Source of the DNA: Planctomycetota bacterium
GTDB lineage: Bacteria > Planctomycetota > Phycisphaerae > Sedimentisphaerales > Anaerobacaceae
Assembly: GCA_042569785.1 (NCBI GenBank)
Contig: JBHPGW010000005.1
Span: 3,347 to 67,346 of the forward strand
Length of the DNA: 64,000 nucleotides
Direction: 5' to 3'
Part shown: piece after piece, positions 1 to 23,502 of the stretch
How positions within the stretch are numbered: the stretch's first letter is position 1
Layout of the letters: every line of letters begins with the position of its first letter
Position numbers and translations under genes: made by a program
Notes under the pieces: generated by a model
What the model saw: the letters and a program-made list of their open reading frames with translations, nothing else
Told to the model about the DNA's origin: nothing
Database searches by the model: none

Positions 1-589
1 ATTCGGTTATCTTAACGTATCTGACGGGCTGTGGTGATTTCTTCCTCTGCTTTATTTTTCCAAATGGATTTTGGCCTTCTTGAAGATAGCCACGGGGGTC
101 AATCGCAAGGTTAAAGATTCGTTTTAGCGTGCGGATATCCTTATTGGCTGTCGGAATCGTCACTCCTGATGCCAAGCGGTGGGCTATAAAAGCTTCTGCT
201 TGTCTGGGCCTAATATTTGTAAGAAATGTTGAACCGTCTATGAACTTTTCAAAGAGCTTGAGAGCTCGAATCTGGTCGCAGAGAGTTGCATAAGCTACTT
301 GGCCAGCCATTACCTTTTTGTGCTCTTTTGCGAAGGCACTGAAGGTAATCTTATCCGGCTTGTCGGGCCTTGCCTGGTTGACATCTGTCTGAAGCTTCCT
401 GGCAAAATAATCGGCAAGCTTTCTGGTCTTAAAACTTCTCGAGTACCTTTTGCCCGCATTGCCAAACCATCTAACTGTCCAGGAATGTCTCCGATATTTT
501 GGCCACTCTGACTTTGGTGCTGGCTTTCCATTTACTTTTGGCACCTTTTCAAGCCATCTGCGATAGATCCCTATTTTCTCTGTTGCCAT
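1..589 (-). CDS. Tyrosine recombinase / phage-type integrase, N-terminal part (gene runs off the left edge)
   Basis: Not on the ORF track because it has no in-window stop. My translation of the minus strand from ATG 589-587 stays open to position 1: MATEKIGIYRRWLEKVPKVNGKPAPKSEWPKYRRHSWTVRWFGNAGKRYSRSFKTRKLADYFARKLQTDVNQARPDKPDKITFSAFAKEHKKVMAGQ...IRPRQAEAFIAHRLASGVTIPTANKDIRTLKRIFNLAIDPRGYL. GGAG lies 7 nt upstream of the ATG. A basic arm-like N-terminus followed by core-binding (SAM-like) helices is typical of integrases. The gene sits directly downstream of an excisionase-like gene. The catalytic domain is outside the window. Confidence 0.65.
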   Translation of the reverse strand, partial: MATEKIGIYRRWLEKVPKVNGKPAPKSEWPKYRRHSWTVRWFGNAGKRYSRSFKTRKLADYFARKLQTDVNQARPDKPDKITFSAFAKEHKKVMAGQVAYATLCDQIRALKLFEKFIDGSTFLTNIRPRQAEAFIAHRLASGVTIPTANKDIRTLKRIFNLAIDPRGYLQEGQNPFGKIKQRKKSPQPVRYVKITE

Positions 590-695: not shown

Positions 696-944
696 TCATG
701 CCGTTTTATTTCTTAAAAAATTCTCAAGCTCAATTTTTAAATACCATACTCTTCTTGCATATTTTGTGGCCTTAAGTTCTCCATGATCTCGCCAGTAATT
801 TAGAGTTCTTTGTGCGGATTTAGGTGTATGGCCAATCTCATTAAGGCGTAAAAACATCGCAGCTTCGACAGGAGTCATTAAATCAGGGAATTTCTGCGGT
901 TTTTTTGGCCATAGAGTTTTTGTATGTGATGATTTGTTATTCAT
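696..944 (-). CDS. Excisionase/AlpA-type helix-turn-helix DNA-binding protein
   Basis: 82 aa. The stretch LMTPVEAAMFLRLNEIGHTPKSAQRTLNYWRDHGELKATKYARRVWYLKIELENFL has the excisionase-family HTH-plus-wing layout. It is co-directional with, and just upstream of, the integrase. Confidence 0.65.
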   Translation of the reverse strand: MNNKSSHTKTLWPKKPQKFPDLMTPVEAAMFLRLNEIGHTPKSAQRTLNYWRDHGELKATKYARRVWYLKIELENFLRNKTA

Positions 945-1146: not shown

Positions 1147-1485
1147 TCAACGGATAATAAACTGAATAAAAAGTAATAGTAAACTTAGTGTCACAAATAT
1201 TGCCATCATGTCGCTAATGATGCCAATAATCTTGCCTTCAATTGATGCGCGATACTCTTCTATCAATTCTTTATCAGATAATCGAGCCCTACCATTGTCG
1301 ATAGCAGCCGCTGGCCCTGCTGAATCACTGATCTCATTTGACTGCGAGATTTGCATCGTCCTTTGGGTGGCACAAGTACCACAGCCGCTTTGCTCACCAG
1401 CTTTGACCACACTTACCAGGACGAATGAGAGCAAAATAACGACCAAAAGCTTCTTCCAATAAATCTGAGATAAATAAGTTTTCAT
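1147..1485 (-). CDS. Small exported/membrane-anchored protein, unknown function
   Basis: 112 aa. N-terminal signal-like segment LLVVILLSFVLVSVVKA and C-terminal hydrophobic helix IIGIISDMMAIFVTLSLLLLFIQFII. No family recognised. Confidence 0.4.
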   Translation of the reverse strand: MKTYLSQIYWKKLLVVILLSFVLVSVVKAGEQSGCGTCATQRTMQISQSNEISDSAGPAAAIDNGRARLSDKELIEEYRASIEGKIIGIISDMMAIFVTLSLLLLFIQFIIR

Positions 1486-1529: not shown

Positions 1530-2471
1530 TTAAAGCCAGACGATTCCAGCGTTATCCTTTTTGATTTCGATAATATCTTTTTCCTTTAATCCTGAGGGGT
1601 ATTGCAAAAATCTCAGTTTGCTGATGTCGTAGTATTTCCGGACACTTCGTTGTACATTTTTGATTAAACGCACTACATAATCTGACCAGTTTTGCCTTGT
1701 GCGAATATTCCTGATAGCAGCAGCTTCTATATGGTAGCCCTCGGCTTCAAGTGCCTGCTGTGTTAGTATCAGACCTCTGCCTCGCGGATTGACGGCTTCG
1801 GCAAAAACTTCTTCGACGCCGCAGTCAACTGCAAATTTAACCAATTCGTCGATTTGGGCAGGTGAGTCCGCGACCGAAGGTAAGATCGGACAGAACATTC
1901 CATAGGTTCGCAATCCTTGTTCGTGGGCTTGCCTAACAGTTTCCATTCGCTCTTCGATGCTGGATGCATTTGGCTCAATTATCTTGATGCGATTGCTCTT
2001 ATCCGGTGTAGCTGTGATGCTTAAGCCAACAAGTACCCGGTCAGCATGTTTTTCGATAAGGTCGAAATCTTTTCTTACGGCGGCGTTTTTGGTTAAGATC
2101 CTAACCGTCCAGTCGGGCTCTGAAAGAATCGCCTCCAGACATTTTCTGCCAAGATCATGTTCCTGTGCTTCAGGTGACCATGCATCTACAGTTGTGCAGA
2201 GTTGAACCATCGCTCTTTTCCTGATCTTGCGGGCATCACGAGCCACCCGTTGAGGGGTGCTGGGATCGACAATTGCGTAGCCATTATCAAATGCCGATAC
2301 GCCTAATTCTTTAAATGCGTGGTGGACTCTGAGCATTGCACCTGTCGAGCAGTATGTGCATGCGTGTCCGCATTTGAGGCCACTATTGACGGCGAATTGA
2401 GCAAGACCTTTTTTCTCGAATTCCTTTGTTCGACTGATACCATTCTTTAATTCCCATTCGTAAGTTTTCAT
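1530..2471 (-). CDS. Radical SAM enzyme, SplB / 'DNA repair photolyase' (COG1533)-like
   Basis: The track ORF is 1530..2516. I prefer the ATG at 2471 (MKTYEWELK), which has AGGAG 8 nt upstream. GLKCGHACTYCS is a CX3CX2C cluster motif near the N-terminus. The overall layout resembles the SplB-like radical SAM group. Confidence 0.7.
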   Translation of the reverse strand: MKTYEWELKNGISRTKEFEKKGLAQFAVNSGLKCGHACTYCSTGAMLRVHHAFKELGVSAFDNGYAIVDPSTPQRVARDARKIRKRAMVQLCTTVDAWSPEAQEHDLGRKCLEAILSEPDWTVRILTKNAAVRKDFDLIEKHADRVLVGLSITATPDKSNRIKIIEPNASSIEERMETVRQAHEQGLRTYGMFCPILPSVADSPAQIDELVKFAVDCGVEEVFAEAVNPRGRGLILTQQALEAEGYHIEAAAIRNIRTRQNWSDYVVRLIKNVQRSVRKYYDISKLRFLQYPSGLKEKDIIEIKKDNAGIVWL

Positions 2472-2554
2472 AATTATACTCCTATGATTTAAATAATTAT
2501 TTGACAACAATTTCATTGTTATTGAGCAGGTTTAACACAGTATTTTTACAATAA

Positions 2555-3016
2555 TTAGACATCTTTTTTGCGCCCGTTAGAAAAATATTTGTATAATTTG
2601 TGGCTGATTATTCCATCGTCGGCATCTGAAGGTATCCCTTCCGGATATATGCTATTGATGGCATCTTTAACCATATCAGGTTTTACCGTCAGCCCCAGTT
2701 GCTTTAAGGCTTGTGTAAACTCCTGACATTTGTGGTATGAAGGGCACTGAATACTTCGGTTTTGTCTTTGTCGTGGGGCGTTGAAGACAACCGGCTCACC
2801 GTCATAGCCGATACCCGTTCTTCGAATTTCGAGGCACTTTTGCTGCATATCGGGAGTATAAAACGGGCGATTAGAACGACCGCAGCGTTCCGGTTTTGGA
2901 AAAACGCCTCTGTTCTGGAGCTGGTAGAATCTTGCCCTGGATAGTTTTAGTCTTGTAACCAGCTCTTTAATAGTACATATCCCTTTGATATTATTGTCTG
3001 ATAAATTTTCCATCAT
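2555..3016 (-). CDS. HTH DNA-binding protein (AlpA/excisionase-like N-terminal HTH)
   Basis: 153 aa. CTIKELVTRLKLSRARFYQLQNRGVFPKPE is an AlpA/MerR-like HTH. Its start codon overlaps the RuvB-like stop by 1 nt (both at 3016). Confidence 0.5.
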   Translation of the reverse strand: MMENLSDNNIKGICTIKELVTRLKLSRARFYQLQNRGVFPKPERCGRSNRPFYTPDMQQKCLEIRRTGIGYDGEPVVFNAPRQRQNRSIQCPSYHKCQEFTQALKQLGLTVKPDMVKDAINSIYPEGIPSDADDGIISHKLYKYFSNGRKKDV

Positions 3017-4017
3017 TATTCTCCATCATTTAAACAAAATTTAGTGTTTTCAATATGCCCTCTGCCTTTTTCCGTAATTTCTCTGACAGAGGATTTGCCC
3101 TTGATGACAAAACCTTCTTTAAGCAAATACGGCTCAATCACTCTCTGTATTGTCAAGGTCGGTAGGGATAATCTTGAACTCAATATGCCTAACGCTGATG
3201 GGCCACAATCATATAATACCTTAAGATAAGCCCTGTCTAAGTACTCCAGCCCCAATTCGTCAATCTGTAAATGGCGAAAAGCTTCATTTACATCGTCGAG
3301 CATAATCATATTACGATCATGGCTTTTGGCTACATGCCAACACATTTGAAGATTCTTATGAAGAGCCTGTCGGGGATTTCCTTTGGCTCTTTGTGCAACA
3401 GTTCGCACAATTTCATCTGATTCGCACTGCCAATTCAATGCTTCTATCCTTTGACGTACGATTCCAACAAGGTCGTCCAACAGATAGTCCTTAAATCTAC
3501 AGTCGATCCTCATCCTACTTCTCAATGCGTCCAGAAGCATATGTTCATGCGTCGTTGCCATTATCAACGTAAAGTTAGCAAGTGGTATTGTATGGTAACG
3601 GTATGGCCCGGCAGGTACGCGCAAAGTTCGCTCAGAAAGAGTTGTTAATAAAACAAGCTGGGTTTTGGAATTCATTCCATGTGCTTCGTCAATAAATATT
3701 GTTGTGTTATCATCAGCACTGAGGAATGTTGAGTATAATTCCGCCTTGGCGTTCATTGTTACACCGTTAGTCTCAATCAGATGCAGATTCCCAAGCTCAG
3801 CGTGAACAGCTTTCGCTGTTATTGTTTTACCCCGTCCACTTGGACCATAAAAAGCAACTGGCCCAAAAGATGGATCAGCATTTTTAGATTCTGATCGACT
3901 ATTGAAATGTGCACTTATATGCACATTCAATTTATTTATAACCTGGGGCTGACCGTGAATATGGGATAAGCTAGTTAATTTAACCTGGTTGACATCCACT
4001 CCAACTTTTTTTTCCAT
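3016..4017 (-). CDS. RuvB-like AAA+ ATPase (stand-alone paralog, no ruvA/ruvC nearby)
   Basis: 333 aa, alignable by eye with E. coli RuvB over its full length. Matches: IHGQPQV (cf. VGQPQV); Walker A GPSGRGKT; Walker B IFIDEAHGM; ATTHEHMLLDALRSRM (cf. ATTRAGSLTSPLRDRF); RAKGNPRQA (cf. RARGTPRIA); C-terminal wing VIEPYLLKEGFVIKGKSSVREITEKG (cf. LEPYLIQQGFLQRTPRGR). Confidence 0.8.
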   Translation of the reverse strand: MEKKVGVDVNQVKLTSLSHIHGQPQVINKLNVHISAHFNSRSESKNADPSFGPVAFYGPSGRGKTITAKAVHAELGNLHLIETNGVTMNAKAELYSTFLSADDNTTIFIDEAHGMNSKTQLVLLTTLSERTLRVPAGPYRYHTIPLANFTLIMATTHEHMLLDALRSRMRIDCRFKDYLLDDLVGIVRQRIEALNWQCESDEIVRTVAQRAKGNPRQALHKNLQMCWHVAKSHDRNMIMLDDVNEAFRHLQIDELGLEYLDRAYLKVLYDCGPSALGILSSRLSLPTLTIQRVIEPYLLKEGFVIKGKSSVREITEKGRGHIENTKFCLNDGE

Positions 4018-4059
4018 TTCAACGCCTTCCTTTCCTTGCCATTAATGATGTTAGCCGGC

Positions 4060-6897
4060 TTAACTTTCGCTACGCCTTTTGTCCAACGGCATTCGTCTGA
4101 TGTATGGCATAAGCGCATCAGCCGTTTCGCGAGTTTTGACAAAAGGCTTTTTACCAAGCTGAACTGAAAGTTCACCGTTAGTAAGAGCATCACCATAGAT
4201 ATAAGCGTCAAGCGATGAGATTAACTGTTGTGGCTCTGCGGCCAGCTTTTTCACAAAAGAACGGTATAATCGCACAAGCAATGGGTAATTGTCGCCAACA
4301 TTGCCGACGATTTCTTCCAGATCTGCCCCAAGATATATGTTGTCAAATGGCTGTCCATTTAGCTCATATCCTCTATGAGTTTTTTTTACACATCCGGATG
4401 CCAATCCCATCGCCACTGCGGCGTGTTTTTCATGTATTGAGCAACTCGCCGGGGGGAGCAAAGCAATGATTGGATCTGCGCCGAGCTTGGCACGAGCTTC
4501 AAAGCTTTGCGGCATGTGCCACAATTTGGAGGTGTCGTTAATTAACCTGTCCATCGAAATCCGACACCGCTGCTGAAAGAATACGATTGCATTGGAATCG
4601 TTTAGTTCGGCAATCTGCCATTCACCGTTTCGAGGGTCAATTTCATTGGCTGTTTTGACTATCCACTCACCCACGGATCTATCTTTGACTGCTATGAACT
4701 TTATTGTTGGTATTATCTCATCTGCCTCGCCGGTAATCCTTAATCTGCCGTTACTCTCACGTAAGCATTGTGCGATCAGGTCTTTCAATTCAGCAGGCGA
4801 TCTGCGGCATTCTTTGAAAACGTCAATAGCATTAAGGGCGGACAAATGCCGGTGAGCCATATCGATACAGTATTCAAGCAGAGTTTCCTTGATGTCATTT
4901 AGATTACGATGGTTAAAGGCGATAAGGTTTTTGTAATGGCCCTGAAATTCACTAAAGACTTTCTCGGATACCTTTTCTTCACCATCCTCATTATCAACTA
5001 CCATTTCAAACTTCTGTATGATAAAGCCGGGAGTTGCCAGTTCCTTGCCTACAGAGACTTTTAATACGGGATTAAGATTCTGAAGCCGGTTTGCTTCGAT
5101 GCCGACATCCCTATCAACAATCATTATATTGCCTGTAAGTTTATGCATCTGAGACAGTTGTTCAGTTAGGAATTCCTGAAGTAATGGATAATACTCATTG
5201 GCCAGGATTACCCTTGCCACAATTTCAAAGCGGTTGCGGACAGCTGATTCCGTGTAAACTGGGAATATTCGCCCTATCTGCTTTTTCATCGAAAAACAGA
5301 AAAACCGCCAAAACCAGAACTTGCCCTTTAATTTGTTTAGAATATCCCTGGCATGACCGAGCATATCATCGATGGATTTTTTCTTGGACTGTACACGTTC
5401 CAGCTTTTTATTATTAGCTTTTTTGAAGGCTTCTGTTTTCTCTATAAAGGTTTCAATAAACTGTGTCGCCTTTGAGAGACCGTCGCGGTCCTGCAGGAGG
5501 ATTAACACTTTGTTGCCAATCGCTTTAGTCGAATCTGTAGAAAACTTCTCAAATTCCCTGTACATTTGCGGTTTAAGACGCTGTGGCATCTCAACATCAA
5601 GCGTATATGAACTTGCATTACCAAGTTCGCAGCAATGATTAAAACCCCAGCCATGACCACAGCGCTGACGAAATACCGCGATGCCATATTCAGAGGCGTT
5701 CGCATTGCCATAGCCACTTAAGCAATGAAGCCGCCTGCAAGCCAAATGCTTGGTTTCCGTCTCAGCTATTGCCAGTTCTGCGGCGACTATGTCAGCTCCT
5801 TTTACAGCCTGCGGCTGTTTTTTGTTTATAAGCAGTTTCTTCAGGAATAGCTCCACCAGCTTATTGGCTACACAACAAATAATGCGAGGCAGGTCCAGAT
5901 GTATGTTTGAATAACCCATCGTTGACACAAAACGCTGGCCGCCCAATTCGTCCTTTATCCAGGCCTCTTCGATATCGACGGCTTTTTCCTGGATTGCTCT
6001 GCCTAACGGTGTATGAAAGAGGTGAAAGATATGCTGCGCCGCCTGTGAAATTAGGTTGTCAAGGTTATCAAAGCCTCCGTGATTATTCGTATCTGATATT
6101 AGAATAAGCGAGTCACAGAGTGGCTGCTGCATTGTGTGCTCTTTGTTAATGTCACTGTATTGACCGACTAAATATGCCTGAAGCTCTCTACAGATCATCT
6201 CCTGGTTCCGAGCTGCTGTTTCCTTATCAATCGGTTCAATGCTGCCCATGCACATTCCTAATACAACGATTCTGACAGGTAGCTTCAGTTCGTTAGCTTC
6301 TTGGCGAATGTTTTTTAACAATTCGATCAATGTGCCGGTGCCAAAACCACCCAGAAGAGACAGGCAAACTGCTGCAGTGATAGGCATATTTACCGCGTTT
6401 TTGTCTTCGGACTTGTCTAAAACCTGGCGCTGTTGCTGGTAATCTCTGCAATTACGCAAAATTTTACGGACTCGTTTGCGTGTTCTGTTTATATTCAATT
6501 TCAATAATCCGTGGCCAGTTCGGCCATTACCGCCGGTACCGTTATTGTCTTTGGATACTCCCGGCTTCCTGAACCAGTTCGCTTCCATTGGCCAAAGCAA
6601 ACCGGCTCGCTCAGCTTTTTCCAGGCTTTCGGCGTCTGGTAAGGTAACAGGCATGAACTCATTTGGCCCTAAAGTCATCTTGTCCATATCACTGTCAGCC
6701 ATTGGGACGAGGAAATTAGGTATTACGCCCTCAGCATCAAAGCCTAACATCTGCAGTTTCTGTTGTGGCGTCAGCATGCCATAGACAGATTCAAGTTTAC
6801 GTACAGCCATTTCTACCTTTTCGCCGGTGCTGCCGGTAAATAAAGCAACACCGACAGATGCGGTTTCGGTTATTGATTCATATAGTTTTGTTTTCAT
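4060..6897 (-). CDS. Large tubulin/FtsZ-superfamily GTPase-like protein (Tubulin_2-type) with long uncharacterised C-terminal region
   Basis: 945 aa. The N-terminal ~300 aa carries GVALFTGSTGEKV, NNGTGGNGRTGHG and the tubulin-signature-like SLLGGFGTGT (nt ~6327-6360), followed by LILISDTNNHGG. The ATG at 6897 has AAGGAG 11 nt upstream and lies 20 nt inside the upstream gene. Confidence 0.6.
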   Translation of the reverse strand: MKTKLYESITETASVGVALFTGSTGEKVEMAVRKLESVYGMLTPQQKLQMLGFDAEGVIPNFLVPMADSDMDKMTLGPNEFMPVTLPDAESLEKAERAGLLWPMEANWFRKPGVSKDNNGTGGNGRTGHGLLKLNINRTRKRVRKILRNCRDYQQQRQVLDKSEDKNAVNMPITAAVCLSLLGGFGTGTLIELLKNIRQEANELKLPVRIVVLGMCMGSIEPIDKETAARNQEMICRELQAYLVGQYSDINKEHTMQQPLCDSLILISDTNNHGGFDNLDNLISQAAQHIFHLFHTPLGRAIQEKAVDIEEAWIKDELGGQRFVSTMGYSNIHLDLPRIICCVANKLVELFLKKLLINKKQPQAVKGADIVAAELAIAETETKHLACRRLHCLSGYGNANASEYGIAVFRQRCGHGWGFNHCCELGNASSYTLDVEMPQRLKPQMYREFEKFSTDSTKAIGNKVLILLQDRDGLSKATQFIETFIEKTEAFKKANNKKLERVQSKKKSIDDMLGHARDILNKLKGKFWFWRFFCFSMKKQIGRIFPVYTESAVRNRFEIVARVILANEYYPLLQEFLTEQLSQMHKLTGNIMIVDRDVGIEANRLQNLNPVLKVSVGKELATPGFIIQKFEMVVDNEDGEEKVSEKVFSEFQGHYKNLIAFNHRNLNDIKETLLEYCIDMAHRHLSALNAIDVFKECRRSPAELKDLIAQCLRESNGRLRITGEADEIIPTIKFIAVKDRSVGEWIVKTANEIDPRNGEWQIAELNDSNAIVFFQQRCRISMDRLINDTSKLWHMPQSFEARAKLGADPIIALLPPASCSIHEKHAAVAMGLASGCVKKTHRGYELNGQPFDNIYLGADLEEIVGNVGDNYPLLVRLYRSFVKKLAAEPQQLISSLDAYIYGDALTNGELSVQLGKKPFVKTRETADALMPYIRRMPLDKRRSES

Positions 6898-8164
6898 CGC
6901 TATTTAACTCCTTATCACTTTCCAAGGGTTCAGATAAAACAGTTATAGTTACCTCATTGACCAACTCTATATCTACCGGCAAATCGAGGACGCTTTTACG
7001 GCGGTGGGTTAATTCGAGACCGTTAATGATAATTGGAGAGCAAGCCAAATTTTGTATTTTAAGCTCTCTCCTGCTTTTGAATATTCTAACGTGTTTATCT
7101 TCTACCGTTTCATCATCAATGTAGATGGTGCTTCCAAGACCGCTGCCAATGAGTATTTCACCGAGAGCATCCAATGACCCAAGATCGTACTTATGGTCGC
7201 CATAAAAAGCGATTAAATGAAACGGCATGTTGTCATCTGTTTGGTCTGTAGCTTTTGAGTTAGTTGCTGATTTTCCTTTTGAAAATACGATTAGAGACAT
7301 AGCACCAAATATCACCAGTATCGCGATAGCAGGCCAAATCATTTTCGAACGTTTCCGAATATTCTTTTTGCCGCCTTCTTTGCTCCGTTCTTTGGCTTTA
7401 AGTTCTTCTGTTTTCGAATTATCGATGTCATGAACAGGTGGTTTAGTAAGCTCGGCTTCATCAAGTTTTTTGTCATCAGACAGCGGCGGCAAAGGTTTTT
7501 GTGTTTTGGAGTCGATAGCCTGTTCGATTGGAACCTGATATGTCCGGAATTTTTCAAACCAGCCGGCAATATCTGAATTTTCAATAATAGCGATATCAAA
7601 CTCATCTCTATCACCGGCAAGCAGCAGATTCGGGTTGGCTGTCTCTGCAACTGTCATAAGAAGGTTAACGCCGCTAAGTTTGCATACTGCTGCCTTATGC
7701 CTGATATCAGCCACTTTCCAGTCACTGTAACGCCCATCTGATATTACGAGGCAATATTTGCTGGTATATGGACGATTATTCAGTTCGCCATAGGCAAGCT
7801 GTAATGCATCAGCGATATTAGCCCGACACCACCATTTGTATTTAAGATCCATAAGTTTTTGATTGAGCCTGGTTCGCTGGGCTGCACTGTCAGGATCAAT
7901 CCGGCAGATTGTTTCGATAACATTTTTATCCTTATGTGCTGAAACAATAATCAGCTCGTCTCCAGCTCCAAGCAATGATATTGCCTGACGGGCAAGGATC
8001 AGTGACTGCCTCCATGTTATATGTCCCACATCGCTGCAGTCGATTATGATGGCTAAAACCAGATGCTCGTCAGTACCAATCGCCCCCTTCCCTGAAGCGT
8101 TAGCAGTAAATGGCACCAAAACCATCATGATTATTATCGATATTTCAAAAAACAGCTTTTTCAT
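6878..8164 (-). CDS. Signal peptide - vWA-like domain - TM helix - FHA-like domain protein
   Basis: The track ORF starts at a TTG (8194). The ATG at 8164 gives MKKLFFEISIIIMMVLVPFTANA, a signal peptide. vWA-like elements are LAIIIDCSDVG (degenerate MIDAS) and YCLVISDGRY. The TM helix is WPAIAILVIFGAMSLIVF. The C-terminal FHA-like stretch is ILIGSGLGSTIYIDDETVEDKHVRIF...SPIIINGLEL. Confidence 0.6.
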   Translation of the reverse strand: MKKLFFEISIIIMMVLVPFTANASGKGAIGTDEHLVLAIIIDCSDVGHITWRQSLILARQAISLLGAGDELIIVSAHKDKNVIETICRIDPDSAAQRTRLNQKLMDLKYKWWCRANIADALQLAYGELNNRPYTSKYCLVISDGRYSDWKVADIRHKAAVCKLSGVNLLMTVAETANPNLLLAGDRDEFDIAIIENSDIAGWFEKFRTYQVPIEQAIDSKTQKPLPPLSDDKKLDEAELTKPPVHDIDNSKTEELKAKERSKEGGKKNIRKRSKMIWPAIAILVIFGAMSLIVFSKGKSATNSKATDQTDDNMPFHLIAFYGDHKYDLGSLDALGEILIGSGLGSTIYIDDETVEDKHVRIFKSRRELKIQNLACSPIIINGLELTHRRKSVLDLPVDIELVNEVTITVLSEPLESDKELNSDENKTI

Positions 8165-8198
8165 AATCTTCCCTTTTCGCCCATTTACGGGCAACTAA

Positions 8199-8411
8199 TT
8201 AGTGTTTGTTTCTTTTGATAATTTTGAAAACTCCGACAACCCCGAGGCATATTACTGCCAAGGAGGCTAAGCCGAATAGGGGGTCATTTTGATGGTATCG
8301 AAGGTTCTCAACACTTTTTGAAATTAATTCAAACAGTTTTGATTTGATTATCAGTATGACGACCATAACTAACAGAAATAGCGGAACTATATTTTCCCAT
8401 CGGATTCTCAT
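8199..8411 (-). CDS. Small two-helix membrane protein
   Basis: 70 aa with two hydrophobic helices (IVPLFLLVMVVILII and LFGLASLAVICLGVVGVF). ATG start with a strong AAGGAGAG SD about 9 nt upstream. Confidence 0.45.
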   Translation of the reverse strand: MRIRWENIVPLFLLVMVVILIIKSKLFELISKSVENLRYHQNDPLFGLASLAVICLGVVGVFKIIKRNKH

Positions 8412-8844
8412 CTTTAGTTCTCTCCTTTTGAATTTTTTGATGTGACAATATCATTTTTTTCTTTGGCAGTCTTTTCAACCGACTATATGTTTCAAGCTCG
8501 CTTTGAAGCTGCCCCAAAAGCAGGATTTTGATAGGTTCACCACCTGGGCTTAGCTGCAGCGGTTTTAGTTTACGTGTGATCTCATTTTTCACTTTTTTAG
8601 TAGGGACAACGACCCATAATGGCACATTTACTAACACCGCCTTTCTTGCGTTGTCCGTGGCATGTCGTAATGTGGTTTCAACCTCAAATCCCAAACTAAC
8701 GTGGTCTTGTTGCGCAAATACATCAAAAAAGGTAGTTACACCGTTTTGGACAAAGCTGTATTCAGTGTCAGCAAAAGCAAAGAACCTGCTCGCGGTCATT
8801 TTGACGTCCATCGCTATAGAATTATGTAGAGTATCTCCTCGCAT
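8329..8844 (-). CDS. Hypothetical protein; possible PD-(D/E)xK-like nuclease fold (weak)
   Basis: 171 aa, starting 6 nt after the HerA-like stop. FFDVFAQQDHVSLGFEVETT gives a D-x12-E-x-E pattern, followed by VNVPLWVVVP. The last ~27 codons overlap the next gene. The fold assignment is a guess. Confidence 0.35.
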   Translation of the reverse strand: MRGDTLHNSIAMDVKMTASRFFAFADTEYSFVQNGVTTFFDVFAQQDHVSLGFEVETTLRHATDNARKAVLVNVPLWVVVPTKKVKNEITRKLKPLQLSPGGEPIKILLLGQLQSELETYSRLKRLPKKKMILSHQKIQKERTKDENPMGKYSSAISVSYGRHTDNQIKTV

Positions 8845-8850
8845 ATTTGT

Positions 8851-10545
8851 TCATTCCTTATGGTCAGCAACTATTTTTATCGCTGATTCAAGTGGTTCAA
8901 TTAATATCGTGCTTCGCCCGCGGCTGCCGGATTCTATTTTGTGTTCCCTGATCAAACCTTTCTCAATAAGGCCGGGACGAGCTCGCTGAACTGTATTAGG
9001 GCTTATGCCAGCGAGTTTGGCGTATTCACTGGAGGGATGCATTGGATGTTCGACTACTGCCAGGATGAATTTGAATTCACTCTGGCTCAAATCACCGTAC
9101 TTTTTACCAAGTGATTCACTCCTTAGTTCAATATTTTCAATCCCGGACCAGTTTGAAAATTCAGTTGCAGGTATAACCTTTAGAGATTCCAGTGGCTTTA
9201 GACTGTCATCGGCATCTTTGTCTGTTACGGGCTGTAGCTGGTCTCGTTTAAGTTCTGGTACCTCGAACAAAAACGGGTATCGCCAATTACCTTCACCAAC
9301 CTGTCCGGCAAAAAGTCCCGGCTTAAGATGGTGTGTACACCAGATAATCTGTTCCTGCGTCAACCCTATAAAACCACCGGCGGCTTTGTAGTCCGGGACA
9401 GAACCACATCGTCCGACTATCTTTGTTGATGTTATGCTTGGTAGGCGAACCGAAAGATTGTCAGGACCCAGGACAGATATACTAAAGCCAATACCTGCGC
9501 CTCTGACAAGGCCAGCCATATCTGTAATGGCGTTACCATGATAGCCGGAGGTTTCTTTTTTCTGGGAAAAAGTCCGTTGACCTTCATCAAAGCTTATCCA
9601 TAAATCCATCCCCTGGTTCGATACACCTCTGGCTATCCGTGAACAAAACTCCGATGCTACAGGGTAATTTTGGAGCAGGTCCTGGACAGTTTCAGGCAAA
9701 CCCGCCAGTTCAAAGACTAAATGCGATTTAGCCAATTTATCAATATCCCAACCTTTATGATAGGCGAGTACTTGCGGTCCAAGTGTTAGCAGCACCGCTT
9801 CGAGATTGTCGATGATAGCCTGGCGTGCTTGGGGATTAGCATGCCTGTTGTAGCGAATAGCCTCAAACAAGTGGAAAAGAGTGGGATACATTTCACCGCC
9901 GTTGAATACACCATGCTTTTTGTAGAGCTTTATGATCGTACTTTTTAGTAAAACAGATGCCCTTGGAGGCAGGTTTAAAACATTGACCAAAAGATCGGCA
10001 GCGACTGAGGCATACTCGTTTGGATCTACACCAAAAGGTACCTGTAGTGGATTTACTTTAAACCGTCTCCCTCTGATTATTATCAGGTCAATGTCTTGTT
10101 TTGCTAAGTGCTTTCTGAGAAATCGAAATTCTCTCTTCCTCAAATCAACCAGCCACATACCGCGGACGTGAGGGGCGATCTGGATTGCATAAAAGATAGT
10201 CAACGTAGTTTTTCCCGAACCAGTATTAGCTATGATTAGCGTGCCCGCATTCAAGTACTGAATGAATGCCTTTATCGGGTTTCCATATTCATCGGCGCCG
10301 ATAATAAAATCGCCTTTACGAAGCTTGGACGGTAGGAAAGGGGAACCACTCCGAGCGATCCTTCTCTGTGCATTAGTAACCCTTTTTACAATTTGGCTGA
10401 TAATGAATTTGTCCTGTATCCCATGGCCAAAGCATCTAAGAAGCTGCCTACCGGCAAAATCCTCAAATACACCAAGTTGCTTACCTATTTCTATCTTTTT
10501 TTCTAACTCAGTTAAGGCGTCATCATTTTTCATTTGTTTTTCCAT
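8851..10545 (-). CDS. HerA/FtsK-superfamily P-loop ATPase with C-terminal winged-helix DNA-binding domain
   Basis: The track ORF (to 10887) has a 114-aa N-terminal extension that overlaps the Cys-rich gene in another frame. The ATG at 10545 (MEKQMKNDD) gives a 23-nt overlap. Motifs: Walker A IIANTGSGKTT; VNPL; Walker B-like LWISFDEGQ; C-terminal wHTH SEYAKLAGISPNTVQRARPGLIEKGLIRE. Confidence 0.7.
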   Translation of the reverse strand: MEKQMKNDDALTELEKKIEIGKQLGVFEDFAGRQLLRCFGHGIQDKFIISQIVKRVTNAQRRIARSGSPFLPSKLRKGDFIIGADEYGNPIKAFIQYLNAGTLIIANTGSGKTTLTIFYAIQIAPHVRGMWLVDLRKREFRFLRKHLAKQDIDLIIIRGRRFKVNPLQVPFGVDPNEYASVAADLLVNVLNLPPRASVLLKSTIIKLYKKHGVFNGGEMYPTLFHLFEAIRYNRHANPQARQAIIDNLEAVLLTLGPQVLAYHKGWDIDKLAKSHLVFELAGLPETVQDLLQNYPVASEFCSRIARGVSNQGMDLWISFDEGQRTFSQKKETSGYHGNAITDMAGLVRGAGIGFSISVLGPDNLSVRLPSITSTKIVGRCGSVPDYKAAGGFIGLTQEQIIWCTHHLKPGLFAGQVGEGNWRYPFLFEVPELKRDQLQPVTDKDADDSLKPLESLKVIPATEFSNWSGIENIELRSESLGKKYGDLSQSEFKFILAVVEHPMHPSSEYAKLAGISPNTVQRARPGLIEKGLIREHKIESGSRGRSTILIEPLESAIKIVADHKE

Positions 10546-10966
10546 CTTCCTCGACAAACGGTAAAAACAGTGTTTTTCCTGTGGCAATCCAGAGGCTCTT
10601 ACGAACGATATTGCCATGACAACTTCTGCAGAAAGGAATAGTTCGCCCGTCAGGCAATTGAAGGTAATGGGCATGAGCCCTACATAAGGGACTGCCACAG
10701 CCTGAGGGATGGGGATTCTCTGTTCCACCACAATGCTTGTGGCATTTGATACAACTGATGGCCCCGCATTCGCGACACCGGCCACCAACAGAAGAAGTAA
10801 TGCAGCCACAATGGAGGCTTGGAATTTCTTCAAGTTCATAGCTTTCAACACCACCGTCTTCTTCAGATAATTTATGATACTCATCATTAACTCCCAAGAT
10901 ATCTATTTCATCGCTTTGAGGGTTCTTGCTGAATCTTCGACGAAAAATTTTTCTTAAAAATGACAT
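10523..10966 (-). CDS. Cys/His-rich putative zinc-binding protein
   Basis: The track start (10990) is a TTG. The ATG at 10966 (MSFLRKIF) has GGAG 7 nt upstream. The core is CGCITSSVGGRCRECGAISCIKCHKHCGG...GCGSPLCRAHAH...FCRSCH, with several CxxC pairs. Confidence 0.5.
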   Translation of the reverse strand: MSFLRKIFRRRFSKNPQSDEIDILGVNDEYHKLSEEDGGVESYELEEIPSLHCGCITSSVGGRCRECGAISCIKCHKHCGGTENPHPSGCGSPLCRAHAHYLQLPDGRTIPFCRSCHGNIVRKSLWIATGKTLFLPFVEEDGKTNEK

Positions 10967-10983
10967 GTAATTGCTCCGATCTA

Positions 10984-11160
10984 TTACCAAGGAGAATCAA
11001 ATATCACCCGGTTTAACCAGCCGGATAGTCGATATACAAATTTAGCAATAAACCATAAGCTAAATACACTCAGCAATATCAAGTCAAACGCCAGAAATGC
11101 ATACCCAATAAACCTCAAGATATCACCGGCATTGTCAGTAAATTTCTTTTTCCAACTCAT
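10984..11160 (-). CDS. Small single-pass membrane protein (below the ORF-track size cut-off)
   Basis: My own translation: MSWKKKFTDNAGDILRFIGYAFLAFDLILLSVFSLWFIAKFVYRLSGWLNRVIFDSPW (58 aa). ATG at 11160 is preceded by AAGGACAGGAA. It fills the gap between two operon genes. Confidence 0.35.
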   Translation of the reverse strand: MSWKKKFTDNAGDILRFIGYAFLAFDLILLSVFSLWFIAKFVYRLSGWLNRVIFDSPW

Positions 11161-11184
11161 TTCCTGTCCTTAAAAAATAAAGGT

Positions 11185-11583
11185 TTAAATATGTGCCGGT
11201 TGAAAATGTCTTTTCCGCTTTCCAAAAGCTATCGTATGGCTCATATATTTTTTACACGTGTTACTGACAAACGCCCATACCTTTGAAGCTGTGTTTTGGG
11301 TAGGAAGAGCAGCGGCTTTAACGGCATCAACAGATGCTTTTGTAATGTCAGGATTGTTCTGCGTCTGTGGTACCACGACGTTGGGTTCGACGTTTATTGC
11401 GACCAGTAACTCTGCGGCCTTATTAGCGCAAGGCTTGTTGAACCTGTTAAGTGAGCTTCTCTGGAGATTTCGTACGATTCGTTTTCGAATCTTGTTAGGG
11501 CATGATACTGCCGATTGTACTTTGGTTTTGTTAATATGTCTTTTTCGTTTCATAGTATCTGCCTTTCCTTTCCCAAATTCCAA
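11185..11583 (-). CDS. Basic hypothetical protein
   Basis: 132 aa with a Lys/Arg-rich N-terminus (MKRKRHINKTK...IRKRIVRNLQR). It is the first gene of the minus-strand operon. No family recognised. Confidence 0.3.
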   Translation of the reverse strand: MEFGKGKADTMKRKRHINKTKVQSAVSCPNKIRKRIVRNLQRSSLNRFNKPCANKAAELLVAINVEPNVVVPQTQNNPDITKASVDAVKAAALPTQNTASKVWAFVSNTCKKYMSHTIAFGKRKRHFQPAHI

Positions 11584-14583: not shown

Positions 14584-15144
14584 ATGTTTCCAAATAAAAC
14601 ATACGAGCTTCGAAAATTGTATTTTGAGCAGAGTAAGTACTCTGCAAAACCAATTAAGCCTGAGTATCCGCTATTATTACAGTGGCCTGAAAAAGGTTAT
14701 TTTAAAAAATTAAAGCCCGATGTTGATCTGCTGCAGAGGGCATTGAAACCTGACAAAAATATCGAGGAAAAAAGTATATCGGAACAAATATTTGGTAATG
14801 AGATAAAACAGCAATCTATTGACCTTCATCATATAGCGAATTTATTTTACGAGCGTTGCAGGCTTCACAAAAACCATATCTCAGAAATCGATAGAAGGCA
14901 TATTGAGGCCCAGGAAAAACTGTTTGGAGTTCAAATTAATAATGCATCAGATAAAGGCAAACGTCTTTCAACTCTGGAAGGCCAGTTGTCACAGCTTGAT
15001 CAACAGAGAAGAGAAGAAGAACTTGCGTTTTGGAAGGATACTGTAGAGCTAAGAGGAACGTTATTTGAAAACTCTGGTGACTACAGAGCCGCTAAGCAAA
15101 GAGAATTTATTTTCTCTGATGTGGAGGCTGGCTATGGCAGATAA
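14584..15144 (+). CDS. Coiled-coil hypothetical protein, partner of the second HerA-like ATPase
   Basis: 186 aa. Heptad-like region LSTLEGQLSQLDQQRREEELAFWKD. GGAG lies upstream of the ATG. Its stop overlaps the next gene's start (ATGGCAGATAA). Confidence 0.45.
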   Translation: MFPNKTYELRKLYFEQSKYSAKPIKPEYPLLLQWPEKGYFKKLKPDVDLLQRALKPDKNIEEKSISEQIFGNEIKQQSIDLHHIANLFYERCRLHKNHISEIDRRHIEAQEKLFGVQINNASDKGKRLSTLEGQLSQLDQQRREEELAFWKDTVELRGTLFENSGDYRAAKQREFIFSDVEAGYGR

Positions 15145-18337: not shown

Positions 18338-18392
18338 TATGGTTTTATTTCGAGAAATGCCTTACGCATAAACTAAAGCGAACGCTTAAACT
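18290..18392. repeat. Four direct 11-bp iteron-like repeats ACG[C/T][A/G/T]TAAACT at the 5' end of the orc1/cdc6-like gene
   Basis: acgcgtaaact 18290-18300; acgtataaact 18308-18318; acgcataaact 18364-18374; acgcttaaact 18382-18392. They form two pairs with an 18-nt pitch, 56 nt apart. The same 11-mer recurs at 17176. Confidence 0.55.
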
Positions 18393-19609: not shown

Positions 19610-19646
19610 AAAGGATTAAAGCTGGCCTAGTATAAAAACCTTTTGC

Positions 19647-19981: not shown

Positions 19982-19991
19982 AAAAAGAAAA

Positions 19992-23481: not shown

Positions 23482-23502
23482 TTTCCGCTTATTCCTCCTA
23501 TC

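What the first reader, a model, noticed from the sequence alone, without database searches (positions are those of the whole stretch)
1530..11583. About 10-kb, 12-gene single-strand operon combining cytoskeletal-type, DNA-motor and radical-SAM components: best candidate for an undescribed system
**Gene order and packing.** All genes from 11583 down to 1530 are on the minus strand and tightly packed. Overlaps or tiny gaps occur at 10523/10545, 8844/8851, 8329/8411, 6878/6897 and 3016/3016; the other gaps are under 45 nt. The order is:
- basic protein
- 58-aa TM protein
- Cys-rich Zn protein
- HerA/FtsK-wHTH ATPase
- 171-aa possible nuclease
- 70-aa 2-TM protein
- vWA-TM-FHA-like protein
- 945-aa tubulin/FtsZ-like GTPase
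- RuvB paralog
- HTH protein
- SplB-like radical SAM enzyme

**Why it stands out.** I do not recognise this combination as any named defence, secretion, partition or conjugation system. It sits on an integrase-bounded island next to a STAND NTPase and a Ubl-conjugation operon, a typical setting for conflict systems. An extracytoplasmic sensor, cytoplasmic NTP-driven machines and DNA-directed components together suggest a multi-step sensing/effector apparatus. A novel DNA segregation or transfer machine of the element is the alternative.
Basis: partly seen in the sequence, partly recalled or inferred. Interest (0 to 1): 0.85.

Follow-up and report, generated by a model that had tools for sequence, protein, structure and literature searches.

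The report
Conserved HerA-nuclease/tubulin core of integrative island
The gene run is real and recurs, in the same order, in dozens of Planctomycetota contigs as the fixed core of islands that insert next to tRNA genes; it couples a DNA motor and nuclease to a swappable tubulin-like or Hsp70 module, matches no named system, and its function is still only inferred.

Summary
There are 11 (not 12) tightly packed minus-strand genes from 11583 to 1530. The run continues through a 112-aa protein and an excisionase-like gene (696-944) into a tyrosine integrase cut by the window edge (589-1).

The same order recurs in at least 20 independent contigs, all Planctomycetota where named. In relatives the recombinase abuts a different tRNA gene each time, so this is the backbone of an integrative island family.

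The block is modular:
- **A, always present:** small TM protein, Zn-ribbon protein, HerA/VirB4-fold ATPase with C-terminal wHTH, PD-(D/E)xK nuclease, 2-TM protein. ATPase, wHTH and nuclease are fused in distant relatives.
- **B, swappable:** either secreted vWA-TM-FHA protein plus FtsZl1 tubulin-like GTPase, or GrpE plus Hsp70 plus cytosolic vWA.
- **C and D, optional:** RuvB-like AAA+ with AlpA-like HTH; SPL-type radical SAM enzyme.

The vWA ectodomain is hypervariable: 21-27% identity where tubulin is 77-94%. PADLOC, PHROGs, IMG/VR, phage and plasmid collections give no named system.

FtsZl1-vWA pairing (2010) and tubulin/Hsp70 alternation (2020) are known themes; the HerA-nuclease core and the island setting are not.

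Best reading (0.45): a sensor-gated DNA-degrading conflict system carried as the island's fixed payload. Main rival (0.3): the island's own DNA transfer or maintenance machine.

The parts
11185..11583 (-). Basic 132-aa protein (pI 10.8); variable leader gene
   Evidence: ORF; pI; the only homologue is in L010 at 37% identity. Not part of the conserved core.
10984..11160 (-). 58-aa single-TM protein; first gene of core module A
   Evidence: One hydrophobic segment, residues 21-39. Homologues at 45-79% identity in the same position in L002, L004, L009, L010, L019-L021, L023 and L024.
10523..10990 (-). Cys-rich (11 Cys, three CxxC) Zn-ribbon-type protein; module A
   Evidence: Motifs. Conserved at 33-69% identity directly upstream of the ATPase in all loci that reach that far. 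No Pfam family.
8851..10545 (-). HerA/VirB4-clade P-loop ATPase (residues 1-~450) with C-terminal winged helix (residues ~485-564); module A
   Evidence: AF2 pLDDT 86. Foldseek top hits are DndH-C, HerA, VirB4, SIR2-HerA and HerA-NurA at E 1e-13 to 1e-9. Invariant G109/G111/K112 and D320/E321. The wHTH is a separate gene in L002, L004, L005, L009, L019, L020 and L023. Start at 10545.
8329..8844 (-). Small PD-(D/E)xK-fold nuclease (core is residues 1-~120); module A
   Evidence: Invariant E28, D41, E54xE56, R60, N65 and K68. AF2 pLDDT 87. Foldseek hits Can2 nuclease domain, AF1548, EcoT38I, R2 endonuclease, Bax1 and Cas4. Fused to the ATPase-wHTH in distant relatives.
8199..8411 (-). 70-aa two-TM protein; last gene of module A
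   Evidence: Two hydrophobic segments. Conserved in position in both tubulin-type and Hsp70-type islands.
6878..8194 (-). Signal peptide, vWA ectodomain, TM, cytoplasmic FHA-fold domain; module B (tubulin type)
   Evidence: Weak Pfam VWA hit. Signal peptide plus mid-protein TM in 8 of the 10 homologues examined (L001 and L002 show only the mid-protein TM). FHA hit in 12 of 12 C-terminal domains, best E 1e-5. Ectodomain 21-27% identical where the FHA domain is 63-84%.
4060..6897 (-). 945-aa FtsZl1-type tubulin-like GTPase with a long C-terminal region; module B (tubulin type)
   Evidence: Pfam Tubulin_2 at 54.5 bits against a cut-off of 27. GGFGTG at residue 183, invariant in 15 homologues. 28 homologues at 44-87% identity.
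3016..4017 (-). RuvB-like AAA+ ATPase with C-terminal winged helix; optional module C
   Evidence: RuvB_N, RuvB_C and AAA_lid_4 hits. 164.6 bits against the 282 cut-off of the RuvB equivalog. Present in L001, L005-L010, L013 and L023; absent in L002, L004 and L020.
2555..3016 (-). 153-aa protein with N-terminal AlpA/excisionase-type HTH; module C
   Evidence: Sub-threshold Phage_AlpA hits in 4 homologues. Follows the RuvB-like gene, or stands alone in L004 and L020.
1530..2516 (-). SPL/SplB-type radical SAM enzyme; optional module D
   Evidence: Pfam Radical_SAM; weak Rv2578c/PA0069 family hits. CGHACTYC motif. phrog_13321 at 4e-35. Present in L002, L009, L010 and L013; an SPL-type enzyme sits in the same slot in L023.
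1147..1485 (-). 112-aa protein with N- and C-terminal hydrophobic segments; window-specific
   Evidence: No homologue in any locus.
696..944 (-). 82-aa HTH_17 excisionase-like protein
   Evidence: Weak Pfam HTH_17 hit. 77% identical to the L010 gene that precedes the integrase.
1..589 (-). 5' part of a tyrosine integrase gene, cut by the window edge
   Evidence: tblastn: 51% identity to residues 3-199 of the L010 integrase. The L010 integrase has Pfam Phage_integrase and abuts tRNA-Phe.
14584..16801 (+). Optional second arm of the island: 186-aa protein plus a second HerA/DUF87 ATPase with a wHTH-like tail
   Evidence: DUF87 hit. 60% (HerA) and 39-44% (186 aa) homologues in L019 and L020; HerA also in L010 and L005; absent in L021 and L002.
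24097..24822 (+). Short (241-aa) Phage_integrase-family gene at the far border of the island; host glycosylation genes follow
   Evidence: Pfam. Equivalent border integrases in L019 (176 aa) and L024 (399 aa).

Best explanation
**What it is (confidence about 0.9).** The run is the constant core of a family of 10-25 kb genomic islands in Planctomycetota. These islands integrate next to tRNA genes through a tyrosine or serine recombinase placed at the operon's 3' end.

**How it is built (shown):**
- **Module A:** a membrane-proximal DNA machine made of a HerA/VirB4-fold ATPase, a winged-helix DNA-binding domain and a small PD-(D/E)xK nuclease. Two small membrane proteins and a Zn-ribbon protein flank it.
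- **Module B:** a vWA protein paired with a self-assembling or chaperone NTPase. One form is a secreted hypervariable vWA domain, TM and cytoplasmic FHA domain plus FtsZl1 tubulin-like GTPase. The other is cytosolic vWA, a 2-TM protein, Hsp70 and GrpE.
- **Modules C and D:** RuvB-like AAA+ with AlpA-like HTH, and an SPL-type radical SAM enzyme. Both are optional DNA-handling accessories placed next to the excisionase and integrase.

**How it most likely works (inferred, confidence about 0.45).** It is a conflict system carried as the island's fixed payload.
1. The fast-evolving vWA domain senses an external or invader-derived ligand.
2. The FHA domain passes the signal across the membrane to the tubulin-like GTPase. 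In the other variant Hsp70/GrpE plays this part. NTP-dependent assembly sets a threshold.
3. This licenses the HerA-wHTH-nuclease motor to load on DNA and degrade it. The target could be incoming DNA (exclusion or defence) or the cell's own DNA (abortive response).
For: **Conservation.** Gene order is conserved in L001-L024 at 39-87% tubulin identity and 40-62% ATPase identity.

**Island nature.**
- A recombinase lies directly downstream in L001, L005, L010, L019, L020, L022 and the window; in L023 the contig ends just after the excisionase gene.
- A different tRNA gene lies at or near the recombinase end in L001, L005, L010, L020 and L022 (Pro, Arg, Phe, SeC, Asp) and about 1.4 kb past the block in L004 (Ser), where no recombinase gene was called.
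- The same MAG holds a second divergent copy.

**Module A is one machine.**
- ATPase fold. Nuclease fold and invariant acidic/Lys residues.
- ATPase, wHTH and nuclease are fused in P0368, P0347, P0395, P0381, P0304, P0378 and P0311.

**Conflict-type signatures.**
- Tubulin+vWA is swapped for Hsp70+GrpE+vWA in one slot. Kaur et al. describe the same alternation for NTP-dependent conflict systems (PMC7159879).
- The vWA ectodomain is 21-27% identical where its own FHA domain is 63-84% and tubulin 77-94%.
- The nearest solved folds include defence HerA complexes and DndH.
- Variable neighbours are STAND/NACHT NTPases, a second HerA and an E1/JAB operon.
- No replication initiator, relaxase, T4SS or virion gene was found in any island.

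**Active enzymes.** Catalytic motifs of all the enzymes are intact.
Against: - No phenotype or experiment exists, and PADLOC gives no system-level hit.
- The block is the only constant content of the islands and always directly precedes the excisionase and recombinase. That pattern is more typical of an element's own life-cycle genes than of cargo.
- A wHTH on a HerA/FtsK-superfamily pump recalls sequence-guided DNA translocases (FtsK gamma domain, TraB; from my own knowledge).
- In the Hsp70 variant the vWA protein is cytosolic, so external sensing is not a universal feature.
- The FHA domain lacks the canonical Arg and Ser phosphopeptide-binding residues.
- att repeats were not found, so island limits are inferred from gene content.
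Confidence: 0.45

Rival explanations
1. The block is the island's own propagation machinery. After excision, the wHTH-guided HerA-type pump and nuclease process and move the element's DNA. The membrane proteins, surface-exposed vWA adhesin and tubulin-like or Hsp70 NTPase provide cell contact, membrane remodelling or partition. RuvB-like/AlpA-like proteins serve excision or replication.
For: - It is the only conserved content of islands that otherwise differ in recombinase type, tRNA target and cargo.
- In L021 host-like genes lie directly upstream of the block, though that contig ends before any excisionase or integrase gene.
- VirB4 is among the top structural matches; there are weak TraG and AAA_10 hits in relatives.
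- Both HerA-like ATPases end in a wHTH.
- A hypervariable surface domain is also typical of adhesins and receptor-binding proteins.
- Makarova and Koonin proposed membrane remodelling for FtsZl1-vWA (PMC2875224).
Against: - No relaxase, coupling protein, VirB6/8-like protein, replication initiator or partition site was detected.
- Non-homologous replacement of the tubulin module by Hsp70/GrpE with a cytosolic vWA is hard to reconcile with one conserved transfer mechanism.
- No relatives in PLSDB plasmids.
Confidence: 0.3
2. It is an integrated temperate virus of an unknown, probably enveloped or pleomorphic kind. The small TM proteins and the signal-peptide/TM-anchored vWA protein would be virion membrane and spike proteins. 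The HerA-like ATPase and nuclease would be the packaging motor.
For: - tRNA-adjacent integrase and excisionase.
- A type-I membrane protein with a hypervariable ectodomain.
- Small membrane proteins and a basic protein.
- A phage-borne homologue family of the radical SAM enzyme.
Against: - No PHROG hit to any structural or packaging family.
- No relative in IMG/VR with the tubulin or ATPase profiles, and none in GenBank phages.
- A32- and FtsK-type packaging ATPases are far weaker structural matches than HerA/VirB4.
- The Hsp70-type islands lack the spike-like protein.
Confidence: 0.05
3. It is simply a member of the DO-GTPase/GAP1-N2 conflict systems of Kaur et al. 2020, or of the generic chromosomal FtsZl1-vWA membrane-remodelling operons, and so is already described.
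For: The tubulin+vWA and Hsp70+GrpE themes occur in one slot. The tubulin-like protein is a Tubulin_2/FtsZl1 member next to a vWA gene.
Against: - The defining DO-GTPase, GAP1 and FNIII-repeat proteins are absent. The only core P-loop protein has a HerA/VirB4 fold.
- Neither paper describes a HerA-wHTH-nuclease core or tRNA-integrating islands. 'HerA' occurs once and 'integrase' not at all in PMC7159879.
Confidence: 0.05
4. It is a one-off juxtaposition of unrelated genes on a defence island.
For: None beyond the variable presence of modules C and D.
Against: The same order is seen in more than 20 contigs, including very divergent ones such as L023 with tubulin at about 20% identity. Gene fusions also link the parts.
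Confidence: 0.01

Closest known systems
FtsZl1 (Pfam Tubulin_2)-vWA operons, Makarova and Koonin 2010 (PMC2875224)
   Same: A Tubulin_2-family GTPase with a non-FtsZ C-terminal region sits directly downstream of a membrane-associated vWA protein. Small TM proteins lie in the operon.
   Different: - Here the pair sits in a swappable slot of a tRNA-integrating island.
- It is joined to a HerA-wHTH-nuclease module and followed by excisionase and integrase.
- No OmpA, protein kinase or GTPase partners were detected.
GAP1-N2 type DO-GTPase conflict systems with tubulin+vWA or Hsp70+GrpE themes, Kaur et al. 2020 (PMC7159879)
   Same: - Mutually exclusive tubulin/vWA and Hsp70/GrpE themes.
- A membrane-bound vWA with an outside domain.
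- Zn-ribbon and TM components.
- Neighbouring STAND and Ubl systems.
- Planctomycetes among the hosts.
   Different: - The core DO-GTPase, GAP1 and FNIII-repeat proteins are missing.
- The constant core is a HerA/VirB4-fold ATPase with wHTH and a PD-(D/E)xK nuclease.
- The systems are welded to recombinases at tRNA genes.
HerA-effector machines: DUF4297-HerA and SIR2-HerA antiphage systems, HerA-NurA, DndH
   Same: A HerA-fold ATPase is encoded next to, or fused with, a nuclease. The nearest solved folds are these proteins.
   Different: - The nuclease is a roughly 120-residue PD-(D/E)xK domain that was not matched to DUF4297, NurA or SIR2.
- The ATPase carries a wHTH.
- There are five to ten extra conserved genes.
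- PADLOC HerA, DndH and mad8 hits are only domain-level.
wHTH-guided DNA pumps of mobile elements and chromosomes (FtsK gamma domain; TraB of actinomycete integrative conjugative elements). Comparison rests on my own knowledge.
   Same: An FtsK/HerA-superfamily ATPase ends in a winged helix. It is encoded on an integrative element together with small membrane proteins.
   Different: - The fold is closer to HerA/VirB4 than to FtsK.
- There is no N-terminal membrane anchor.
- A nuclease is coupled or fused.
tRNA-targeting genomic islands with AlpA-type regulator and integrase (P4/CP4-57 type)
   Same: Integrase at the island end abutting a tRNA gene; HTH_17/AlpA-like small proteins upstream of it.
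   Different: The constant content is this unknown multi-NTPase operon, not phage-satellite or known cargo genes. Recombinase families are interchangeable: Tyr in L001, L010, L019, L020 and L022, Ser in L005.

Membership tests
FtsZl1 / Pfam Tubulin_2 family | Match to the Tubulin_2 model above the gathering score | tested here: met
   54.5 bits against a cut-off of 27, residues 22-349.
FtsZl1 / Pfam Tubulin_2 family | Conserved tubulin/FtsZ nucleotide-binding T4 loop (GGxGTG) | tested here: met
   GGFGTG at residue 183. G183, G184, G186, T187 and G188 are invariant in 15 homologues.
FtsZl1 / Pfam Tubulin_2 family | Operon partner with a vWA domain | tested here: inconclusive
   Pfam VWA at 20.7 bits, below the 23.8 cut-off. 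Homologues show DxSxT at the MIDAS position but the window protein has DCSDV. No structure was predicted.
DO-GTPase/GAP1-N2 conflict systems (Kaur 2020) | TRAFAC-clade DO-GTPase as the constant component | tested here: not met
   No GTPase family hit in any block protein. The core P-loop protein has a HerA/VirB4 fold.
DO-GTPase/GAP1-N2 conflict systems (Kaur 2020) | GAP1 protein (GAP1-N2, -M and -C domains) | not testable with these tools
   No model of GAP1 is in the libraries. No unassigned three-domain protein of suitable size is in the block.
DO-GTPase/GAP1-N2 conflict systems (Kaur 2020) | FNIII-repeat protein | tested here: not met
   No fn3 hit in Pfam scans of the block or its neighbours.
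DO-GTPase/GAP1-N2 conflict systems (Kaur 2020) | Linked tubulin+vWA or Hsp70+GrpE theme | tested here: met
   Tubulin type in the window, L001-L018, L020 and L023. Hsp70/GrpE type in L019, L021, L022 and L024.
DUF4297-HerA / SIR2-HerA antiphage systems | HerA-fold ATPase | tested here: met
   Foldseek probability 1.0 and E 1e-9 to 1e-12 to HerA chains, including the SIR2-HerA and DUF4297-HerA complexes.
DUF4297-HerA / SIR2-HerA antiphage systems | DUF4297 or SIR2 effector partner | tested here: not met
   No Pfam or PADLOC hit of that kind. The partner is a small PD-(D/E)xK protein closest to Can2, AF1548 and EcoT38I.
HerA-NurA end-resection complex | NurA nuclease partner | tested here: not met
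   No NurA hit. The nuclease fold is PD-(D/E)xK.
Conjugative type IV secretion (VirB4-based) | VirB4-like ATPase | tested here: inconclusive
   VirB4 (4ag5) ranks third by fold, with TM 0.70 on the target. Sequence hits are weak only.
Conjugative type IV secretion (VirB4-based) | Relaxase, coupling protein, VirB6/VirB8-type channel proteins | tested here: not met
   None detected in the window island or in L001-L024 gene tables and scans.
MADS defence system | MAD6, MAD7 and MAD8 together (mandatory in the authors' model, 10.1101/2023.03.30.534895) | tested here: not met
   Only domain-level mad8 hits: 19 bits for the window protein and 53 bits for the distant relative P0368. Unrelated P-loop neighbours also hit mad8.
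Prophage | Virion or packaging gene families; presence in viral collections | tested here: not met
   PHROGs gave only the radical SAM and AAA+ hits. IMG/VR scans found nothing. GenBank phages gave no match.
tRNA-targeting integrative island | Site-specific recombinase at the island end, adjacent to a tRNA gene | tested here: met
   Met in relatives: a different tRNA gene abuts or lies just past the recombinase gene in L001, L005, L010, L020 and L022, and one lies about 1.4 kb past the block in L004, where no recombinase gene was called. In the window the integrase is present but cut by the edge, so its tRNA cannot be seen.
tRNA-targeting integrative island | Flanking direct repeats (att sites) | tested here: inconclusive
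   No convincing repeat of the tRNA end was found in the available flanks. Most contigs lack the far border.

The most novel reading that the evidence does not exclude
The block may be the self-propagation apparatus of a previously unknown class of bacterial mobile element. In this reading a wHTH-guided HerA-type pump with its own nuclease exports the excised island's DNA. A tubulin-like (or Hsp70) NTPase coupled through a membrane-spanning vWA-FHA protein, with a hypervariable surface domain, would drive cell contact or membrane budding. That would be a DNA transfer route that is neither conjugation by type IV secretion, nor a capsid, nor TraB-type transfer. It would also give the FtsZl1 tubulin family its first function.
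Probability: 0.22. Interest if true: 0.9.

Novelty: new variant of a known kind. Interest (0 to 1): 0.66.

Why it matters
- **FtsZl1 function.** FtsZl1 tubulin-like proteins have had no function since their description in 2010. Here they sit in a defined, mobile genetic context with a clear partner logic: vWA-TM-FHA upstream, HerA-wHTH-nuclease alongside, and interchangeability with Hsp70/GrpE/vWA.
- **An unlisted machine.** The HerA-wHTH-PD-(D/E)xK machine has about 244 clusters at 50% identity with E below 1e-30. It is not in current defence or mobile-element catalogues.
- **An understudied phylum.** Very few mobile elements or immune systems are known in Planctomycetota.
- **Experimental access.** Copies exist in cultured strains. 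Anaerobaca lacustris has an apparently intact Hsp70-type copy. The copy in Limihaloglobus sulfuriphilus is broken by insertion sequences.
- **Either outcome is informative.** It is either a new sensor-gated DNA-degrading immune system or a new DNA mobility mechanism.

Tried and rejected
- **att sites.** Direct-repeat searches and short-word BLAST of the tRNA ends against the opposite flanks found nothing convincing. A partial tRNA search at the window's far border (22300-25100) also found nothing.
- **Window extension.** The window's own contig and the 61-kb sister contig of the same MAG could not be retrieved. The integrase 3' end and its tRNA therefore remain unseen.
- **Sequence searches against PDB.** Profiles of the ATPase, the vWA protein and the tubulin-like protein gave nothing useful.
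- **Promoters and terminators.** Counts were not above shuffled expectation, so operon status rests on gene packing and synteny.
- **RNA genes.** No tRNA or Rfam family in the window.
- **Membrane-anchored pump rejected.** The N-terminal hydrophobic stretch of the 678-aa ORF is the alternative frame of the Cys-rich gene.
- **Archaeal origin rejected.** Weak Cdc6, Lrs14 and DUF7839 hits suggested it at first, but the proteins are from Planctomycetota.
- **Hsp70 as a ParM-type partition actin rejected.** GrpE is present and the sequence has a DnaK-like substrate-binding region.
- **MADS membership rejected**.
- **Taxonomy of distant relatives.** Cluster look-up gave no names.

Full report
**1. 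Observation**

With the start codons that fit the homologues, the genes are:
- basic 132 aa (11185-11583)
- TM58 (10984-11160)
- Cys-rich 155 aa (10523-10990)
- ATPase (8851-10545)
- 171 aa (8329-8844)
- TM70 (8199-8411)
- vWA protein (6878-8194)
- tubulin-like protein (4060-6897)
- RuvB-like protein (3016-4017)
- HTH 153 aa (2555-3016)
- radical SAM enzyme (1530-2516)

Junctions are -7, -23, +6, -83, +4, -20, +42, -1 and +38 nt. That makes 11 genes, not 12.

The mechanical 678-aa ORF (8851-10887) has a 114-residue N-terminal extension with an apparent signal peptide. This stretch is the alternative reading frame of the Cys-rich gene.

The same-strand run continues past 1530. It includes a window-specific 112-aa protein and an 82-aa HTH_17 excisionase-like protein (696-944). 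It ends with the first 199 residues of a tyrosine integrase that runs off the window edge at 589-2.

**2. Origin and recurrence**

The tubulin-like protein is identical to a protein of a Planctomycetota MAG. Relatives named by their sources are Phycisphaerae/Sedimentisphaerales, Anaerohalosphaera, Anaerobaca lacustris, Limihaloglobus sulfuriphilus and Kuenenia.

I fetched 24 related loci through the tubulin-like protein, the ATPase and the 171-aa protein. tblastn of the window proteins against them shows the same genes in the same order. This holds even in L023, where the tubulin-like gene is split and only about 20% identical.

The same MAG carries a second, divergent copy, with the ATPase 77% and the tubulin-like protein 51% identical.

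**3. The block is the backbone of a tRNA-targeting integrative island**

Wherever the contig extends far enough, the operon is followed by an HTH_17 excisionase-like gene and a recombinase:
- Tyrosine recombinase in L001, L010, L019, L020, L022 and the window; in L023 the contig ends just after the excisionase gene.
- Serine recombinase in L005.

In five loci a tRNA gene overlaps or lies just past the recombinase gene, and it is a different tRNA each time: Pro, Arg, Phe, SeC and Asp. In L004 a tRNA-Ser lies about 1.4 kb past the block, where no recombinase gene was called. Host genes follow.

At the other border a short integrase-family gene occurs in the window (24097-24822), L019 and L024. 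In L021 host-like genes lie directly upstream of the first core gene; that contig ends before any excisionase or integrase gene.

I could not find att repeats.

Variable content between the borders includes:
- a STAND or NACHT NTPase
- a second HerA/DUF87 ATPase with a 186-aa partner (60% identical in L019 and L020)
- a Cdc6-like AAA+ protein
- an E1/JAB operon

**4. Modules**

*Module A* is present in every locus. It comprises TM58, the Cys-rich protein, the ATPase, a wHTH, the 171-aa protein and TM70.
- The ATPase model (pLDDT 86) matches DndH-C, HerA, VirB4, SIR2-HerA, HerA-NurA, TdpAB and DUF4297-HerA at E 1e-13 to 1e-8. In the viral structure library it matches HerA-like and conjugal-transfer-like proteins, not A32-type packaging ATPases.
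- Its Walker A (G109, G111, K112) and Walker B (D320, E321) residues are invariant.
- The last roughly 80 residues form a winged helix. This is a separate gene in about half the loci.
- The 171-aa protein has invariant E28, D41, E54xE56, R60, N65 and K68. Its model (pLDDT 87) matches PD-(D/E)xK nucleases: the Can2 nuclease domain, AF1548, EcoT38I, the R2 endonuclease, Bax1 and Cas4.
- In distant relatives found by the exhaustive profile search, the nuclease domain is fused to the C-terminus of the ATPase-wHTH protein. That search gave 2,613 hits at E up to 1e-3 and 244 at E up to 1e-30. ATPase, wHTH and nuclease therefore form one machine.

*Module B* comes in two non-homologous versions in the same slot.
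- **Tubulin type.** This has two proteins:
  - The first has a signal peptide, a vWA domain, a TM segment and a cytoplasmic FHA-fold domain. The FHA hit is found in 12 of 12 homologues; the canonical Arg and Ser phosphopeptide-binding residues are not conserved.
  - The second is the 945-aa Tubulin_2/FtsZl1 protein with an invariant GGxGTG loop.
- **Hsp70 type** (L019, L021, L022, L024). GrpE, a DnaK-like Hsp70, a cytosolic 231-237-aa vWA protein with an intact DxSxS motif, and a 2-TM protein.
- Of the six loci found through the ATPase or the nuclease rather than through tubulin, four are Hsp70 type.

Per-domain identities show that the vWA ectodomain evolves far faster than everything around it. 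It is 21-27% identical where the FHA domain of the same protein is 63-84% and tubulin 77-94%.

*Module C* is the RuvB-like AAA+ protein plus a 153-aa protein.
- The RuvB-like protein has an intact Walker A motif and is well below the RuvB equivalog cut-off.
- The 153-aa protein's N-terminus gives sub-threshold AlpA hits in four homologues.

*Module D* is an SPL/SplB-type radical SAM enzyme with phage-borne relatives.

Modules C and D are present in many islands but not all. The radical SAM gene of L013 is 91% identical to the window's, while the tubulin genes are 48% identical. This indicates exchange between islands.

**5. Comparison with known systems**

- **Defence and virus catalogues.**
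  - PADLOC gives no system-level match. Hits to HerA, DndH and mad8 are generic P-loop similarities that unrelated neighbours share. MADS requires MAD6, MAD7 and MAD8.
  - PHROGs, IMG/VR, GenBank phages and PLSDB give nothing that would make this a known phage or plasmid module.
- **Literature.**
  - FtsZl1-vWA pairing was described in 2010 with a membrane-remodelling hypothesis (PMC2875224).
  - Kaur et al. 2020 described mutually exclusive tubulin+vWA and Hsp70+GrpE themes in GAP1-N2 DO-GTPase conflict systems (PMC7159879).
  - Those systems are defined by a TRAFAC GTPase, GAP1 and an FNIII-repeat protein, and none of these is present here. That paper mentions neither a HerA-nuclease core nor integrases.
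  - A search for papers combining HerA, vWA, tubulin and integrase found nothing relevant.

So the two halves resemble known themes, but the combination, the ATPase-wHTH-nuclease family and the island context appear undescribed.

**6. Mechanism**

Shown:
- the fold and motif assignments
- the fusion that links ATPase, wHTH and nuclease
- the alternation in slot B
- the membrane topology prediction
- the hypervariable ectodomain
- the island context

Inferred, favoured reading (about 0.45): module B is a sensor and threshold switch.
1. vWA binds a ligand.
2. The FHA domain transmits the signal across the membrane.
3. NTP-dependent assembly of the tubulin-like protein, or the Hsp70 cycle, sets a threshold.
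4. This gates module A, a DNA-loading translocase-nuclease.

The result would be exclusion of foreign DNA or an abortive response. I favour this for four reasons:
- Non-homologous replacement of the NTPase and vWA pair is typical of conflict systems.
- The arms-race signature lies on the exposed domain.
- The cargo around the block is defence-like.
- No replication, transfer or virion genes are present.

The main rival (about 0.3) is that modules A and B are the island's own DNA transfer or maintenance machinery. Three points support it:
- The block is the only constant content of the islands and is always welded to the excisionase and recombinase.
- VirB4 is an equally good structural match.
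- wHTH-tipped pumps are known from FtsK and TraB (from my own knowledge).

A pleomorphic provirus reading (about 0.05) is weakened because the Hsp70-type islands lack the spike-like protein.

**7. Verdict**

This is a real, conserved and unnamed multi-module system. Parts of it overlap described themes, so I rate it a new variant of a known kind rather than categorically new. Its function is unresolved, but it is testable in cultured Sedimentisphaerales. Interest is 0.66.

Noticed in passing
window 14584-16801 (+): A 186-aa protein plus a second HerA/DUF87 ATPase that also ends in a wHTH-like tail. The pair recurs at 60% and 39-44% identity in L019 and L020, and the HerA also in L010 and L005, but not in L021 or L002. 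It is an optional second HerA arm of the same island family.
   Followed up: partly
window 11795-14287 (+): An 830-aa novel-STAND NTPase transcribed divergently from the operon. A 37% homologue sits in the same slot in L010 and a NACHT-HEAT protein in L024. The slot looks like a variable cargo position.
   Followed up: partly
window 17198-22360 (-): A Cdc6/Orc1-like AAA+ protein with a C-terminal winged helix, an HTH protein, a ThiF-type E1 and a JAB-domain protein (a Ubl-type operon). None is conserved in the other islands, although a ThiF fragment lies inside L023.
   Followed up: no
window 24097-24822 (+): A short 241-aa integrase-family gene at the far border of the island, just before host glycosyltransferase genes (PMT_2 at 24995-26524). 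Similar border integrases occur in L019 (176 aa) and L024 (399 aa).
   Followed up: partly
window 8851-10887 (-) versus 10523-10990 (-): The longest ORF of the ATPase gene overlaps the Cys-rich gene by 365 nt and mimics a signal peptide. It is an alternative-frame artefact, and it could mislead automatic annotation into calling a membrane-anchored ATPase.
   Followed up: yes
L013 6222-7187 versus window 1530-2516: The radical SAM gene is 91% identical between two islands whose tubulin-like genes are only 48% identical. This suggests recent recombination or cassette exchange at the 3' end of the islands.
   Followed up: no
P0368, P0347, P0395, P0381, P0304, P0378, P0311 (distant ATPase relatives): Single polypeptides of 657-904 aa carry ATPase, wHTH and the PD-(D/E)xK nuclease domain together.
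   Followed up: partly
L022 (Limihaloglobus sulfuriphilus CP019646.1, 1615404-1635817): An Hsp70-type island whose ATPase gene is interrupted by an IS21-family element, a DDE transposase and a group II intron reverse transcriptase. It is a decaying copy in a cultured strain.
   Followed up: partly
L023 3664-7379 and 12591-15273: A distant island in which the tubulin-like gene is split into 423-aa and 459-aa genes. A sigma-54-type AAA+, a MoxR-like AAA_5 fragment and a DUF2201 (vWA-like) protein lie upstream of the core.
   Followed up: no
window 26544-63886 (-): About 37 kb of uninterrupted minus-strand genes, apparently a host glycan or cell-envelope biosynthesis cluster judging from PMT_2 next to it. 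Not examined.
   Followed up: no
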